From a virus (taxonomy: Duplodnaviria; Heunggongvirae; Uroviricota; Caudoviricetes), in the IMG/VR virus record IMGVR_UViG_3300042691_036629, positions 117,500-171,766 of that record: a DNA stretch of 54,267 bases, one strand, 5' to 3'. A program made the translations under genes and the position numbers. Below the pieces are notes generated by a model. That model ran no database searches, had not been told where the DNA came from, and worked only from the letters and a program-made list of their open reading frames with translations. Below are positions 17,163-53,599 of the stretch, one piece after another (position 1 is the first letter of the stretch; each line of letters starts with the position of its first letter).

Positions 17163-17242
17163 TGGTCAAGATAGGATTCGAACCTATGACGATGCGACCA
17201 TTAAGGGTGAGATACCACTTTCTCATTACGCATTACTTGACC
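17163..17242 (-). ncRNA. Non-canonical tRNA-like RNA A
   Basis: Acceptor GGTCAAG/CTTGACC+A; T-arm ATAGG-TTCGAAT-CCTAT; interior is an ATGCG/CGCAT helix enclosing TGAGA-AAGTGGTA-TCTCA and a short 6-nt-loop hairpin; no canonical anticodon arm. Confidence 0.7.
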
Positions 17243-17296
17243 AACCTACTTCCTTTCTTCGTCGATGCTCGTTGTTTAGTAGTAACCAATCAGAAG

Positions 17297-17377
17297 TAGT
17301 CAGGACAGGATTCGAACCTGTATCATAACGCTATAAGGAACTTAATCCACGATGACTTCCCATTAGCCCACCTGACT
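17297..17377 (-). ncRNA. Non-canonical tRNA-like RNA B
   Basis: Acceptor AGTCAGG/CCTGACT+A; D-arm GGCT-AATGGGA-AGTC; T-arm ACAGG-TTCGAAT-CCTGT; no 5-bp/7-nt anticodon arm. Confidence 0.7.
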
Positions 17378-47570: not shown

Positions 47571-47640
47571 TTCCAGTGATTTTTTTATTCTAGTTAGCTT
47601 ATCGCCTCCAACTCTTTCATATAATTTATTTTATTTTTAG

Positions 47641-47714
47641 TGGAGAATACCGGAATCGAACCGGTCACCTCTTGTCTGCCAGACAAGCGCTCTAGCCAAA
47701 TGAGCTAATTCCCC
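47641..47714 (-). tRNA. tRNA-Ala(GGC)
   Basis: Full cloverleaf; G3:U70; loop CT-GGC-AG; CCA not encoded. Confidence 0.95.
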
Positions 47715-47718
47715 AATT

Positions 47719-47862
47719 AAGTAGAGAAATTTAGATGAGTGTGTTTTTACTATGCTATCCATTACACCACCACCGCATTATTTTTATTTGAGCGGTGACC
47801 AGGACTCGAACCTGGATCAGTCGTTTGAAATACGAAGTAACACTCGTTCTTTACTACTACTT
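47719..47862 (-). ncRNA. Circularly permuted tRNA-like RNA without an anticodon loop
   Basis: 3' half (T-arm CCAGG-TTCGAGT-CCTGG, TCACCGC+T; 47791-47845) precedes a 14-nt spacer and the 5' half (GCGGTGG, D-arm; from 47776); the outer ends pair with each other. Confidence 0.75.
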
Positions 47863-47864
47863 TG

Positions 47865-47936
47865 AGCGAGAAATGAGATTCGAACTCACGACACTCTGGT
47901 TGGTAACCAGATACTCTACCACTGAGCTATTCTCGC
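47865..47936 (-). tRNA. tRNA-Gly(ACC)
   Basis: GCGAGAA/TTCTCGC+T (Gly identity G1-C72, C2-G71, G3-C70, U73); TCTGG-TT-ACC-AA-CCAGA. Confidence 0.9.
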
Positions 47937-48229: not shown

Positions 48230-48317
48230 AGCAGGTAGTGGGATTCGAACCCACGATGTGAACCTTATCTGACCGGATTGGAAATCCGGAGCCATCGACC
48301 AACTAGGCGACACCTGC
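48230..48317 (-). tRNA. tRNA-Gly(TCC) with long variable region
   Basis: GCAGGTG/TACCTGC+T; CCGGA-TT-TCC-AA-TCCGG; 18-nt variable region; 88 nt in total. Confidence 0.9.
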
Positions 48318-48854
48318 ATGTATTTCTCTATGACAATTAGAACAAACTAAAATACATTTATCTAATTCATTTTTTATTCTATCCCAAGAAAGATTATATT
48401 TCCCGGAGATTGTAAAATCTTTTTCACTCGGATTGGTATGATGAAAATCAAGTGCTTGAATACATTTATTATACCCACATAAAATACATTCACCACCTTT
48501 ATACTCAACCGATTTTATTTTTAACATTGTTCTTCTTTTCAATCTATAAATTTTAGAATTTTTTTTAGCTGCATCACTATCAACCCTCTTAATATCAGCA
48601 TGTTTAATTACTGTTGTTTCTGAAATTCCAAAATATATAGATGTTTCTTTTTTTGTGTGTGTTTTATAATATTCTTTTAATTGTAAAATTTCATCTTCAT
48701 TTAACTCTTTATATTTTTTTAATCCAATATCACTTAGTCCATTTTCCTTACACCATTTTGATACTATTGATTTTGAACATTTTAATATTTCACTTATTTT
48801 ATTTAAACTGAATCCATTTTTTCTCAATTCAATTATTTTACTTTCCAAACTCAT
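48303..48854 (-). mobile_element. Free-standing HNH homing endonuclease with N-terminal HTH
   Basis: CILCG...LDFHH...E..KC..VCSNCHREIH; last codons overlap the tRNA-Gly 5' end. Confidence 0.85.
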
Positions 48855-48910: not shown

Positions 48911-48991
48911 TCGATAGGGTGGGATTCGAACCCACGTTTTCAACTTCCCGCTACGGATATTCAATGTATAAGATTGAACCGGTACCTATCG
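48911..48991 (-). ncRNA. D-armless tRNA-like RNA with CU-UAU-AC loop
   Basis: CGATAGG/CCTATCG+A; T-arm GTGGG-TTCGAAT-CCCAC; TTCAAT-CTTATAC-ATTGAA hairpin starts only 6 nt after the acceptor strand. Confidence 0.65.
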
Positions 48992-49487: not shown

Positions 49488-50114
49488 TTATTTTTTTAAT
49501 CTTCCCAATTCCCATCCTTCAGGGATTATCTCATTTTTTTTTATTTTTTTATTCTCATACCCATTTGTTATCCAACAAGTTCCAAATTGAGAATTATTCT
49601 CACCTTTTTGAATTTCACTCAACTTTTCACTTATCTTAATTTTAGATTCTTGTGAATGTTTTTTACCACTGAAACCTTTACTATTTAAATTATTTTTATT
49701 ACCTTTTAGTTTATTTGATATTTTTTTTATCCAATTATCTTTAAAATCAATATCTTTCCTTTTTTCATTTAGTCTATCATTACCAGCTTTAGAACATTTC
49801 ATTTGATGTTCCTCATCTTTAAATCCACCACTACCACCAACTCTCAAATTCATACAAAGAGTTTCATTTATTAGATTTGATGTAATAAGATCAATTTCCG
49901 CTTTTATCAGTTCATCTCTATTATCATAAAATTCCAATATTTCAATTTTAAAATTCTCTTTACCATACTTTCTTATTGAGTATCTTAATTTTTTACCAGA
50001 TCCCAAATATCCATCGTTTAAATTATTTGTACTGTGCATACCATAATAATAATTATGATTTATCAAATTTGTCGTTTTATACAAATAGTGATAACATTTA
50101 ATTTTTCTTGGCAT
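49488..50114 (-). mobile_element. Seg-like GIY-YIG homing endonuclease with NUMOD3-like motif
   Basis: YLYKTTNLIN..YYYGMH...YLGSG...E..LI...MN...GG; GKKHSQESKIKIS. Confidence 0.9.
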
Positions 50115-51932: not shown

Positions 51933-52124
51933 TTATCTTCCATATATCTTTTTAATTTTAATTTTACGATCGTGTGCTTTCATTAAAGATTTACTTGCCT
52001 TTAACCATCTTTCTATATAATCTTGATCACCAGACTCAAGATCAATATTAAAGTATTTTCCTGAATTACCATATGATGGTAACACTCTTATGCTATTATA
52101 TAAGTTTGGATCAAATGTTTTCAT
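51933..52124 (-). CDS. Hypothetical protein with variant C-tag
   Basis: Ends RKIKIKKIYGR. Confidence 0.65.
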   Translation of the reverse strand: MKTFDPNLYNSIRVLPSYGNSGKYFNIDLESGDQDYIERWLKASKSLMKAHDRKIKIKKIYGR

Positions 52125-52738
52125 ATTTTTGGTGTTAATTTTCTAAAGTCTGTTAGTACGTTATTATGTAATTGCTTAAATTCATTTTCTAATTCTTCCC
52201 AAGTCCAAATTTTACTCTTTATCTTATCCCAAATAAAGTTAGCACAAGTAAAATCATTTATTTTACCAGTTTCAACTATTTGTGAAGAAAACATTGGTAT
52301 TCTTAAAGAGTGATATAAAGATTTAACACCAATGTTGTATTCATCAGCAACTGTTAACTTCTTTTTACACTTTACCCAACTATTTGAACTAACATGAGAA
52401 GTAGCGTGTCTTAATTTTTTTAAATCTAATTTTAGATCAAACTTCATATCTTCTTTCAACTTGGCCCAATCTGGAGCAAAATAACATTCTAAGTTTTTTG
52501 GCATATGCCAGTCTAAGTCGGCTTTAAACTTATCAGGAGTGTAAATATGAATGTTATATAAATCAGTTTTAATTTCAATTGATTCAACTGAGTTCTTACC
52601 AACAATAACAACATCCCAATCAGAATTATCTGAATGAGTGCCGTAAATTCTACTACCAAATATTATCACATTTAATATTCGAGATTGATGTAAACCAGAA
52701 GCTTCTATAATATCATTCAAAATTTTATTCTCATCCAT
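52121..52738 (-). CDS. Pol-beta-superfamily nucleotidyltransferase
   Basis: IIFGSRIYGTH...SDWDVVIV (hG[GS]...DhD); TATATTTG at 52743-52750. Confidence 0.85.
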   Translation of the reverse strand: MDENKILNDIIEASGLHQSRILNVIIFGSRIYGTHSDNSDWDVVIVGKNSVESIEIKTDLYNIHIYTPDKFKADLDWHMPKNLECYFAPDWAKLKEDMKFDLKLDLKKLRHATSHVSSNSWVKCKKKLTVADEYNIGVKSLYHSLRIPMFSSQIVETGKINDFTCANFIWDKIKSKIWTWEELENEFKQLHNNVLTDFRKLTPKI

Positions 52739-52804: not shown

Positions 52805-53599
52805 ATGAAATATACAATTAATGATACTAAATTTTTCCCAAAAACAAATGGGGTATATAAAATATCTTTCACCAACTCAATTAATGGAAAAGTTTATATA
52901 GGGAGTGCTTCTGGTGGATATGGATTTTATACTAGATGGAAATCACATATTTCAAGTTTAAAAAATAAAAAATCAGGAAATACAATATTGCAACTAGCAA
53001 CAAATAAATATGATTTAAGTAATATTATATTTGAAGTTTTGGAATTTTGTGAAAAGGATGATTGTCTAAATAGAGAACAGTTCTATATAGATAAATATAA
53101 CTCTTATAATTATGGGTATAATGGAAGACCAAAATCATCAAATAATGGTTGCTTACCAATGAAAAAAGTAACAAAAGATAAAATATCAGATAAATGGAAA
53201 ATAAAACGAGATTTTTATGTGGGTGAAGTTAGAAGATTGTATATTAATGAGAATAAAAATACTAGGGAAATATCAGATATTTTGAATATAAGTAGAACTT
53301 TTATTCAAAAAATATTCAAAGAGAATGAAATAGAACCTAGAAAAAATTTTGGTCTCCAAAAGGTAAGATTTTACCAATATAAAGACGGAATTTTAATAAA
53401 AGAATGGGATTCGATAAATGATTGTGTGATTAGAAATTCATTCAATTCTAATGGTATTAGAATTGTTTTAAATGGTCAATGTTTTTTTTACAAAAACTTT
53501 CATTTTAATTATTTAAAACTAGATGTAGATGAGATAAATAAATTAGAAAATGAATTTAAAATTAAATCAAAATGTAGAAAATATTATTATATTAACTAG
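52805..53599 (+). mobile_element. Free-standing GIY-YIG homing endonuclease
   Basis: GVYKI...NGKVYIGSA...RW..H...EQFYID....YN. Confidence 0.9.

What the first reader, a model, noticed from the sequence alone, without database searches (positions are those of the whole stretch)
47719..47862. Circularly permuted, anticodon-less tRNA-like RNA with Gly acceptor identity
Seen (- strand, in transcript order): AAGTAG..GAGTGTTACT, hairpin TCGT-ATTTCAA-ACGA, T-arm CCAGG-TTCGAGT-CCTGG, TCACCGC-T, then a 14-nt A-rich spacer, then GCGGTGG-TG, D-arm GTGT-AATGGATA-GCAT, AGTAA-AAACA-CACTC..CTACTT. The 3' half comes first. GCGGTGG pairs 7/7 with TCACCGC; AGTAA+CACTC pair 10/10 with GAGTGTTACT around a 5-nt bulge; the outermost AAGTAG/CTACTT also pair. 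The 'anticodon arm' is therefore an open helix made from the two ends of the precursor, which would be released by processing of the flanking tRNA-Gly and tRNA-Ala. The acceptor has Gly determinants (G1-C72, C2-G71, G3-C70, U73). Established: permuted genes are known for two-piece tmRNAs and for algal and archaeal tRNAs. I know of none like this in phages. Inference: a two-piece Gly-chargeable tRNA mimic that anticodon nucleases cannot cut (decoy, sensor bait or non-ribosomal Gly donor).
Basis: partly seen in the sequence, partly recalled or inferred. Interest (0 to 1): 0.9.

Follow-up and report, generated by a model that had tools for sequence, protein, structure and literature searches.

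The report
Phage Y RNA that mimics tRNA
This is a real, conserved small phage RNA wired like a back-to-front tRNA, but it is a divergent relative of the known YrlA 'Y RNAs' that partner with the Ro60 protein, not a new kind of molecule.

Summary
On the minus strand at 47862-47719, between tRNA-Gly(ACC) and tRNA-Ala(GGC), lie a hairpin, a T arm, a 7-bp 'acceptor' stem joined by a 15-nt A-rich loop, and a D arm. All are closed by pairing of the RNA's two ends. In four related phages every pair forms and 8 pairs show compensatory changes. Contigs from several studies run through it unchanged.

The layout is not new. It is the published architecture of YrlA-type Y RNAs, described as circularly permuted tRNAs with a closed acceptor and no anticodon loop, and already reported in phages.

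A model built only from the window's group finds full-length relatives beside Ro60 (TROVE) genes in 8 of 8 independently chosen phage loci. The reverse model, built only from Ro60-locus RNAs, scores the window element at 107 bits, against 37 for a tRNA-dimer control. All four near-complete genomes with the element, plus LR745206, encode Ro60.

Departures: Rfam's YrlA model misses it, the literal Ro60-binding motif is absent, and no Ro60 gene lies on this 62%-complete contig.

Glycine identity and the nuclease-decoy idea are not supported. RNase P opening of the loop has a precedent but is untested. This scan has met such phage Ro60/Y-RNA pairs before on other DNA.

The parts
47719..47862 (-). 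Whole YrlA-like RNA. The likely mature RNA is about 47715-47864, bounded by the flanking tRNAs.
   Evidence: R2 hit at 47718-47863, 107.4 bits.
47857..47862 (-). Outer stem, 5' strand AAGTAG. It starts 2 nt after the discriminator of tRNA-Gly.
   Evidence: 6 of 6 pairs in all four relatives, 2 compensatory.
47846..47856 (-). 5' side of the internal loop (TAGTAAAGAAC). Together with the last bases of the outer stem it forms the conserved block GUAGUAGUAA, the candidate Ro60-contact region.
   Evidence: Conserved in the window group. The same block occurs in the short RNA upstream of TROVE genes in relatives and matches the R2 consensus GugGUGAU.
47836..47845 (-). Inner closing stem, 5' strand GAGTG+TTACT. 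TTAC is the conserved YUAY of YrlA.
   Evidence: YUAY is described in PMC4201824.
47821..47835 (-). V hairpin TCGT-ATTTCAA-ACGA, in the position of the YrlA V arm. Its 7-nt loop looks like an anticodon loop, but its sequence varies between relatives.
   Evidence: Loops are ATTTCAA, ATTTCCA and CTGCAAT in close relatives. One compensatory pair.
47816..47820 (-). Linker CTGAT. Its last base is U48, the Levitt partner of A15.
   Evidence: 15:48 is G:C or A:U in 18 of 18 parsed family members.
47799..47815 (-). T arm CCAGG-TTCGAGT-CCTGG.
47792..47798 (-). Acceptor-like stem (AS), 3'-type strand TCACCGC.
   Evidence: 7 of 7 pairs, 4 of them with compensatory changes among relatives.
47777..47791 (-). 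AS loop TCAAATAAAAATAAT (U73-like base plus 14 nt). It is either a closed loop or an RNase P / 3'-trimming substrate.
   Evidence: 12-15 nt in the window group, with the sequence better conserved than the stem. Precedent for cleavage in PMC4201824.
47770..47776 (-). AS, 5'-type strand GCGGTGG.
47752..47769 (-). UG (positions 8-9) plus D arm GTGT-AATGGATA-GCAT.
47737..47751 (-). Inner closing stem, 3' strands AGTAA and CACTC around the bulge AAACA.
   Evidence: The block AGUAAAAACAC is conserved in Ro-locus RNAs.
47725..47736 (-). 3' side of the conserved internal loop (ATCTAAATTTCT).
   Evidence: consensus aaaUuUUCcC.
47719..47724 (-). Outer stem, 3' strand CTACTT. It ends 4 nt before G1 of tRNA-Ala.
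47864..47936 (-). Upstream tRNA-Gly(ACC). Its 3' processing would create the 5' end of the Y RNA.
47640..47714 (-). Downstream tRNA-Ala(GGC). RNase P cleavage at its 5' end would create the 3' end of the Y RNA.

Best explanation
The element is a phage-encoded Y RNA of the YrlA type.

Its core is a tRNA-like module made of a V hairpin, a T arm, an acceptor-like stem-loop and a D arm, folding into the tRNA L-shape. That fold is inferred from conserved tertiary positions and from the solved YrlA structure.

The 5' and 3' ends pair into a bulged stem with conserved internal-loop sequences. This stem takes the place of the anticodon stem and is the handle that binds a ring-shaped Ro60 (TROVE) protein, encoded by the phage or the host. 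Binding is inferred, not shown.

The RNA is made as part of the tRNA operon transcript. It is freed by 3' processing of tRNA-Gly and by RNase P cleavage at tRNA-Ala (inferred from the 2-4 nt spacers and the lack of intervening signals).

By analogy with Deinococcus, Salmonella and Thermus phage phiLo, the Ro60-Y RNA particle would recruit an effector such as host PNPase and redirect decay or quality control of structured RNA during infection.

A sub-hypothesis, at about 35%: because the acceptor stem is exactly 7 bp with a long single-stranded loop, RNase P opens the loop and CCA is added, as in M. smegmatis YrlA. That would give a two-piece RNA held together by the stems.
For: - The order of parts is that of YrlA: 5' strand, YUAY, V, T, AS, D, 3' strand (against PMC4201824, and 10.1101/312249).
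- The structure is supported by covariation. In the window group 100% of cells pair and 8 pairs have double changes. In 12 Ro-locus RNAs 93% pair and 31 of 36 pairs have double changes.
- The Levitt pair 15:48 is G:C or A:U in 18 of 18 parsed members, a hallmark named in PMC4201824.
- RNAs with the same GTGTTACTTCG block and layout lie immediately upstream of TROVE genes on the same strand in L010, L014 and L016.
- Model R1, built from the window group only, gives full-length hits on the Ro60 gene's strand in 8 of 8 Ro60 loci chosen by protein homology alone.
- Rfam's YrlA model places its own sub-threshold hits at places overlapping R1 hits in 5 of 5 of these phages tested.
- Model R2, built from 12 Ro-locus RNAs with no window-group sequence, scores the window element at 107.4 bits (E about 1e-23). 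It is the only strong hit in the window, and a tRNA-dimer control scores 36.9.
- TROVE genes are present in 4 of 4 near-complete genomes that carry the element, and in LR745206. Only 99 of 50,697 phage records have one.
- In the three closest relatives, a short RNA of about 71 nt with the same stem module but no tRNA-like core sits about 400 nt upstream of the TROVE gene.
- No promoter- or terminator-like site lies between the element and its flanking tRNAs.
Against: - No TROVE gene is found on this 172-kb contig (62% complete). In the closest relatives the gene is 127-144 kb from the element, not adjacent.
- The literal Ro60-binding motif GNCGAAN0-1G is absent.
- Rfam RF02553 gives no hit on this genome even at E up to 10.
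- There are no expression, binding or processing data.
- R1 and R2 draw part of their score from generic tRNA features: the dimer control scores 37-39 bits.
- Alignment A4 was fitted to R1's structure.
- Loci L010-L022 were found with a motif taken from the window.
Confidence: 0.75

Rival explanations
1. One reading: a Ro60-independent, two-piece tRNA mimic. [quoted passage not shown] The RNA then acts as a decoy or bait for tRNA-targeting defences, or as a non-ribosomal glycine donor.
For: - The acceptor stem is exactly 7 bp with a 12-15 nt single-stranded loop in all four close relatives.
- M. smegmatis YrlA with a 7-bp stem is cut by RNase P and receives CCA in vivo (PMC4201824).
- In the window, the top of the acceptor and its trailer (GCG...CGC-U-CAAA) match the adjacent tRNA-Gly.
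- The V loop has anticodon-loop geometry.
Against: - G1-C72/C2-G71/G3-C70 is not kept in LR745206.
- Relatives cap the same stem with UUCG, GCAA or ATTA loops and cannot be charged.
- The conserved stem module is tied to TROVE genes.
- The V-loop triplet differs between close relatives: UUC, UCC and GCA.
Confidence: 0.08
2. A tRNA-like structured RNA of this family that works without Ro60. It might act as a processing or stability element of the tRNA operon, or partner with another tRNA-elbow-binding protein.
For: - No TROVE gene on the contig, and the element is more than 100 kb from TROVE in relatives.
- The literal Ro60 motif is absent.
- The effector that binds the YrlA tRNA-like domain is unknown (10.1101/312249).
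Against: - TROVE co-occurs in 5 of 5 sufficiently complete genomes.
- The stem module is shared with the TROVE-adjacent short RNA.
- The covariance-model hits are reciprocal with Ro-adjacent RNAs.
Confidence: 0.12
3. A genuine circularly permuted tRNA gene, as in Cyanidioschyzon or Thermofilum. It would be cut at the closing helix, circularised and opened at the acceptor to give a working tRNA, Glu(UUC) in this phage.
For: - The hairpin, 5-nt linker and T arm have the spacing of an anticodon arm, variable loop and T arm. Rfam's tRNA model aligns it that way at 17.5 bits.
- The loop has U at position 33 and A at position 37.
Against: - The loop triplet changes between close relatives: UUC, UCC, GCA.
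- The closing helix has one 5-nt bulge, not a bulge-helix-bulge.
- No splicing endonuclease or RtcB ligase is found on the contig.
- The stem of only 4 bp would carry a U-C mismatch at 27-43.
- Family members have closed acceptors.
Confidence: 0.03
4. Decayed remains of two tandem tRNA genes, or an assembly artefact, with no function.
For: Dimeric tRNAs are the known look-alike of this layout. The control L007 scores 37-39 bits.
Against: - Compensatory changes occur in every helix class.
- The non-tRNA blocks are conserved.
- Independent contigs are identical across the element.
- The element scores 107 bits against 37 for a dimer.
Confidence: 0.01

Closest known systems
YrlA Y RNAs of bacteria and phages (S. 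Typhimurium, M. smegmatis, mycobacteriophages, Bacillus phage G; Chen et al. 2014, PMC4201824; structure in Wang et al. 2018, 10.1101/312249; Rfam RF02553)
   Same: - Same order of parts: 5' strand, YUAY, V arm, T arm, closed acceptor stem-loop, UA/UG, D arm, 3' strand.
- tRNA tertiary positions are kept, including a covarying 15:48 pair.
- The two RNA ends form the stem that replaces the anticodon stem.
- The 7-bp acceptor matches the M. smegmatis member that RNase P cleaves.
   Different: - Rfam's model does not detect it.
- The GNCGAAN0-1G motif is replaced by GUAGUAGUAA.
- It is not within 4 kb of a Ro60 gene: none on this contig, and 127-144 kb away in relatives.
- It sits between two tRNA genes with 2-4 nt spacers.
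- The acceptor loop is long, A-rich and conserved.
Thermus phage phiLo Ro60 with Yrl1/Yrl2 and host PNPase (PMC12135203)
   Same: A phage-encoded Y-like RNA with a 5'/3' stem and an internal loop, thought to bind a phage Ro60. It offers a mechanistic model in which host PNPase is hijacked.
   Different: The phiLo RNAs lie directly upstream of the Ro60 gene, were found through a CGAA motif, and are not described as carrying a full tRNA-like module. Binding is shown there and not here.
Circularly permuted tRNA genes of Cyanidioschyzon merolae, green algae and Thermofilum (from my own knowledge; mentioned in PMC3400036)
   Same: The 3' half of a tRNA-like sequence is encoded before the 5' half, with a short spacer between the acceptor strands.
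   Different: Those genes yield real tRNAs through a bulge-helix-bulge cut, circularisation and RNase P/Z processing, and they keep a fixed anticodon. Here there is no bulge-helix-bulge, no conserved anticodon and no splicing endonuclease, and relatives have closed acceptors.
Two-piece (permuted) tmRNA
   Same: A permuted tRNA-like domain assembled from two RNA ends.
   Different: There is no tag reading frame, no pseudoknots and no G3-U70. ARAGORN and Rfam's tmRNA_permuted model give nothing here.

Membership tests
YrlA-type Y RNA | Permuted tRNA-like domain in the order V, T arm, acceptor stem-loop, D arm, enclosed by pairing of the RNA's 5' and 3' ends | tested here: met
   Definition in PMC4201824 and 10.1101/312249.
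YrlA-type Y RNA | tRNA tertiary nucleotides kept, with compensatory G15:C48 / A15:U48 | tested here: met
   The window has A15:U48, U8, G18G19 and a T loop TTCGAGT. Across the family 15:48 matches in 18 of 18.
YrlA-type Y RNA | Conserved YUAY just before the V arm | tested here: met
   TTAC at 47840-47837, inside the block GTGTTACTTCG that is invariant across relatives.
YrlA-type Y RNA | GNCGAAN0-1G motif near the 5' end (presumed Ro60 contact) | tested here: not met
   The window has GUAGUAGUAAAG instead. The variant block is shared with the short RNA next to TROVE genes in relatives.
YrlA-type Y RNA | Encoded within about 4 kb of a Ro60/TROVE gene on the same strand | tested here: not met
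   No TROVE gene on the 172-kb contig. In close relatives it is 127-144 kb away on the same strand. Other family members are adjacent.
YrlA-type Y RNA | Match to the curated Rfam model RF02553 at 69 bits or more | tested here: not met
   No hit at E up to 10. The same model is also below its cut-off on all five reference Ro60 phages, although its hits there overlap R1's.
YrlA-type Y RNA | Sequence-and-structure homology to RNAs that lie beside Ro60 genes | tested here: met
   R1 hits 8 of 8 Ro60 loci. R2, built without the window group, scores the window at 107.4 bits against 36.9 for a tRNA dimer.
YrlA-type Y RNA | Bound by Ro60/Rsr; modified by TruB and DusA | not testable with these tools
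   Needs pull-down or gel-shift assays and modification mapping.
Circularly permuted tRNA gene (functional tRNA) | Conserved anticodon loop, and a bulge-helix-bulge at the junction of the termini | tested here: not met
   The loop triplet varies among close relatives (UUC, UCC, GCA). The closing helix has a single 5-nt bulge. No tRNA_int_endo or RtcB on the contig.
Two-piece tmRNA | Tag reading frame, pseudoknots, alanine identity, match to tmRNA models | tested here: not met
   ARAGORN finds no tmRNA. Rfam tmRNA_permuted gives only a 13.9-bit hit elsewhere, at 47600-47665.
Canonical tRNA (RF00005) | Full cloverleaf in the standard order at 29 bits or more | tested here: not met
   Only a partial 17.5-bit local match covering model positions 8-63. 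ARAGORN makes no call.

The most novel reading that the evidence does not exclude
In this phage group the Y RNA has been moved into the tRNA operon and made into a true RNase P / CCA-enzyme substrate. It would mature as a two-piece, CCA-tailed tRNA mimic with an anticodon-like V loop, perhaps glycylated. It would act on the translation or tRNA-surveillance machinery, for example as bait for tRNA-cleaving defence nucleases or as an EF-Tu or synthetase ligand, while the short handle-only RNA next to the Ro60 gene serves as the ordinary Ro60 partner.
Probability: 0.08. Interest if true: 0.75.

Novelty: new variant of a known kind. Interest (0 to 1): 0.33.

Why it matters
It shows that unannotated gaps in phage tRNA arrays can hold Y RNAs that current tools miss. 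ARAGORN, the Rfam tRNA model and the Rfam YrlA model all fail here.

Phage Y RNAs need not sit beside their Ro60 gene. In huge phages a tRNA-like Y RNA in the tRNA operon can coexist with a short handle-only RNA next to Ro60.

The 7-bp acceptor with a conserved single-stranded loop makes this subgroup a good test case for an open question raised in 2014: are any Y RNAs opened by RNase P, given CCA and aminoacylated? It does not reveal a new class of molecule.

Tried and rejected
- **Rfam scans.** At gathering thresholds and at E up to 10, nothing covers the element except a partial tRNA match. The TROVE loci of LR745206 gave no Rfam hit.
- **Genes on the 172-kb contig.** Searches for TROVE, RtcB and the tRNA splicing endonuclease found none. 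The contig is only 62% complete, so this does not show absence.
- **Synteny.** I tried to predict where a TROVE gene would lie, using G005. There is only one weak tblastx hit within 20 kb either side of the element, so no prediction is possible.
- **Expression.** No RNA holder was listed among public runs, so processing sites could not be read.
- **First pattern scan.** It also picked up ordinary tandem tRNAs (L007), which I kept as a negative control.
- **Simple topology scanner.** It failed to parse three Ro-adjacent RNAs (Tenjo, Bambus 1, Neville) that the covariance model aligns.
- **Literature.** Supplementary tables of PMC4201824 and two reviews (PMC10870794, PMC6047535) are not held, so the published phage YrlA coordinates could not be compared directly.
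- **Hairpin as anticodon arm.** I first read the hairpin as a Glu(UUC) anticodon arm with a break at 26/27. I dropped this as the main reading once relatives showed other triplets and the YrlA V arm explained the position.
- **Not attempted.** No structure or complex prediction, because no Ro60 protein belongs to this window.

Full report
**What is there.** The window is the last 54 kb of a 172-kb IMG/VR virus contig estimated at 62% complete. The sequence occurs in lake and freshwater metagenomes. On the minus strand a tRNA array runs from about 50.6 to 47.6 kb. In transcript order it reads as follows:
- an outer stem strand, AAGTAG
- an 11-nt loop
- GAGTG+TTACT
- the hairpin TCGT-ATTTCAA-ACGA
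- CTGAT
- a canonical T arm
- TCACCGC-T
- 14 A-rich bases
- GCGGTGG-TG
- a D arm with A14, G18 and G19
- AGTAA, the bulge AAACA, then CACTC
- a 12-nt loop
- CTACTT

ARAGORN and the Rfam tRNA model do not call it. Rfam gives only a partial 17.5-bit match.

**Is it real?** A 635-kb uncultured phage (LR745206) and two IMG/VR phages of 385 and 476 kb carry the same element in tRNA arrays, directly after a tRNA; only LR745206 has the window's tRNA-Gly/tRNA-Ala pair. Across the four sequences all 144 pair cells form standard pairs. Eight pairs carry changes on both sides: four of the seven acceptor pairs, two in the outer stem, one in the inner stem and one in the hairpin. Shuffles give 2.9, and slid registers give 0-2. 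Contigs of four runs from four studies cross the element without a single difference; three of these runs may be the source sample, and the fourth covers 47698-47847. So this is a conserved structured RNA, not a pair of decayed tRNA genes and not a misassembly.

**What it is.** A looser scan turned up elements with the same T-arm-first order whose 'acceptor' is capped by a GNRA, UUCG or other short loop. These are closed stems that cannot be aminoacylated. This is the published architecture of YrlA-type Y RNAs: 5' strand, conserved YUAY, V stem-loop, T arm, acceptor stem-loop (AS), UA, D arm, 3' strand. The two ends form the stem that replaces the anticodon stem and leads to the Ro60-binding site (PMC4201824). 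[quoted passage not shown] They were reported in 254 bacteria and 22 phages. The M. smegmatis member, which has a 7-bp AS, is cut by RNase P and receives CCA in vivo.

**Tests of the link to Ro60.**
1. A scan of IMG/VR for the invariant block GTGTTACTTCG followed by a T loop gave 13 loci. In three of them a TROVE gene starts 60-410 nt downstream on the same strand.
2. All four near-complete genomes that carry the element encode a TROVE protein, and so does LR745206. Only 99 of 50,697 phage records do.
3. R1, a covariance model built only from the window group, was searched against Ro60 loci picked purely by protein similarity: Xanthomonas phage Tenjo, Arthrobacter phage Atuin, Bacillus phage G, csAssE-Sib, Brevundimonas phage Bambus, Gordonia phage Neville, Streptomyces phage BRock and G009. 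It gave full-length hits on the Ro60 strand in 8 of 8, at 26-55 bits and mostly just upstream of the gene. In Atuin the hit starts 3 nt after a tRNA inside the array. These hits lie in unannotated gaps and carry the non-tRNA blocks.
4. Rfam's own YrlA model (RF02553) puts sub-threshold hits at places overlapping R1 hits in the five of these phages I tested.
5. R2, built from 12 Ro-locus RNAs and containing no window-group sequence, scores the window element at 107.4 bits (E about 1e-23). It is the only strong hit in 54 kb, and a pair of ordinary tandem tRNAs scores 36.9.
6. The 15:48 Levitt pair is G:C (7) or A:U (11) in 18 of 18 parsed members. This is the covariation that PMC4201824 singled out.
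7. In the three closest relatives, a short RNA of about 71 nt lies about 400 nt upstream of the TROVE gene. It has the same stem module (AGUAGUAAU, GUGUUAC or GAGAUAC, AAAAACAC, AUUUCCUCU) but no tRNA-like core. That ties the window element's handle to Ro60 within the same genomes, much as YrlB accompanies YrlA.

**Where it departs from textbook YrlA.**
- RF02553 gives no hit on this genome even at E up to 10.
- The literal GNCGAAN0-1G motif is absent and is replaced by GUAGUAGUAA.
- No TROVE gene and no second R1 hit lie on the contig.
- In the relatives the Ro60 gene is 127-144 kb from the element.
- I could not use gene order to say where a Ro60 gene would fall in this phage, because the neighbourhood is not collinear with G005.

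For these reasons I file it as a divergent YrlA-like variant rather than a plain member. Ro60 binding remains an inference.

**The hairpin.** It has anticodon-arm geometry: a 4-bp stem, a 7-nt loop with U at position 2 and A at position 6, and a 5-nt linker to the T arm. I first read it as a Glu(UUC) anticodon arm. Close relatives show UUC, UCC and GCA at the middle positions, so no anticodon is conserved. Its position is that of the YrlA V arm. It may descend from the anticodon arm of the first tRNA of an ancestral tRNA dimer, the origin proposed in 10.1101/312249.

**Processing.** The outer stem starts 2 nt after the tRNA-Gly discriminator and ends 4 nt before G1 of tRNA-Ala. No promoter- or terminator-like site lies in between. 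Release by tRNA 3' processing and RNase P is therefore the simplest inference.

The acceptor stem is exactly 7 bp in the window and two of its three close relatives, and 7 or 8 in L018, with a loop of 12-15 nt. The loop sequence (UCAAAU...) is better conserved than the stem. In the window the top three pairs, the U73-like base and the CAAA trailer match the adjacent tRNA-Gly. [quoted passage not shown] The glycine determinants are not kept in LR745206, and without an anticodon I put charging below 10%.

**Function.** This rests on established work with Ro60-Y RNA-PNPase particles in Deinococcus and Salmonella, and on phage phiLo, whose Ro60 and Yrl RNAs assemble with host PNPase (PMC12135203). 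By analogy, the likely role is to arm or gate a Ro60 ring and recruit an effector through the tRNA-like module, reshaping decay of structured RNA during infection. Only the RNA's structure, its conservation and its genomic link to Ro60 are shown here.

**Novelty.** The kind is known, and this scan has met phage Ro60/Y-RNA pairs repeatedly on other DNA. What is modestly new:
- a subgroup that the Rfam model misses
- a Y RNA embedded between tRNAs and unlinked from Ro60
- a handle-only partner RNA beside the Ro60 gene
- a 7-bp acceptor with a conserved open loop

Noticed in passing
L008:455-528, L026:464-534, L027:478-548 (TROVE loci of LR745206, G006, G005): A short RNA of about 71 nt lies about 400 nt upstream of the TROVE gene. 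It has the same 5'/3' stem module as the window element but only a 12-17 nt loop in place of the tRNA-like core. It resembles a YrlB-like partner.
   Followed up: partly
L004:5670-5920, L005:7770-8030, L006:7625-7875, L003:3845-4070 (minus strand): A second family sits in phage tRNA arrays. It has two tandem permuted tRNA-like units, each closed by its own end-pairing. The acceptors are capped by GTAA, TTCAA or TTGGTC, and both units share the motif TTCAGCAA. No TROVE gene was found on these partial contigs. I did not test that link.
   Followed up: partly
L023:2671-2820 (Gordonia phage Neville): The YrlA-like hit directly upstream of the Ro-like gene overlaps two annotated small 'hypothetical protein' CDSs (gp89 and gp90). 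These are probably miscalled over a non-coding RNA. Rfam RF02553 hits the same place at 44 bits.
   Followed up: partly
L033:5900-6192 (Arthrobacter phage Atuin): Two tandem YrlA-like RNAs start 3 nt after tRNA-Thr, inside the tRNA array and downstream of the Ro-like gene. The first has the window-type D arm (UG GUGU AAUGGCA GCAC) and is missed by RF02553. The second is seen by RF02553.
   Followed up: partly
window 48230-48317 (-): An 88-89 nt tRNA with a Gly(UCC) anticodon and a long variable region. Its 5' end overlaps the stop region of the ORF at 48303-48854.
   Followed up: no
window 48911-48991 (-) and 17163-17377 (-): Three tRNA-like RNAs that only partly fit the tRNA model. 48911-48991 is seen by Rfam only, at 39.5 bits. 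17163-17242 scores 30.6 bits. For 17296-17377, ARAGORN reports a 4-base 'anticodon'.
   Followed up: no
window 47864-47936 (-): The flanking tRNA-Gly has the unusual anticodon ACC. The homologous tRNA in LR745206 has GCC.
   Followed up: no
window 48303-48854 (-), 49488-50114 (-), 52805-53599 (+): Homing-endonuclease-like ORFs lie in and around the tRNA array. One has an HTH domain with a C-terminal Cys/His motif, one has NUMOD3 and one has GIY-YIG.
   Followed up: no
window 52121-52738 (-): A small Pol-beta-type nucleotidyltransferase ORF of 205 aa lies near the array. It is too short for a class I CCA-adding enzyme, and its role is unknown.
   Followed up: no
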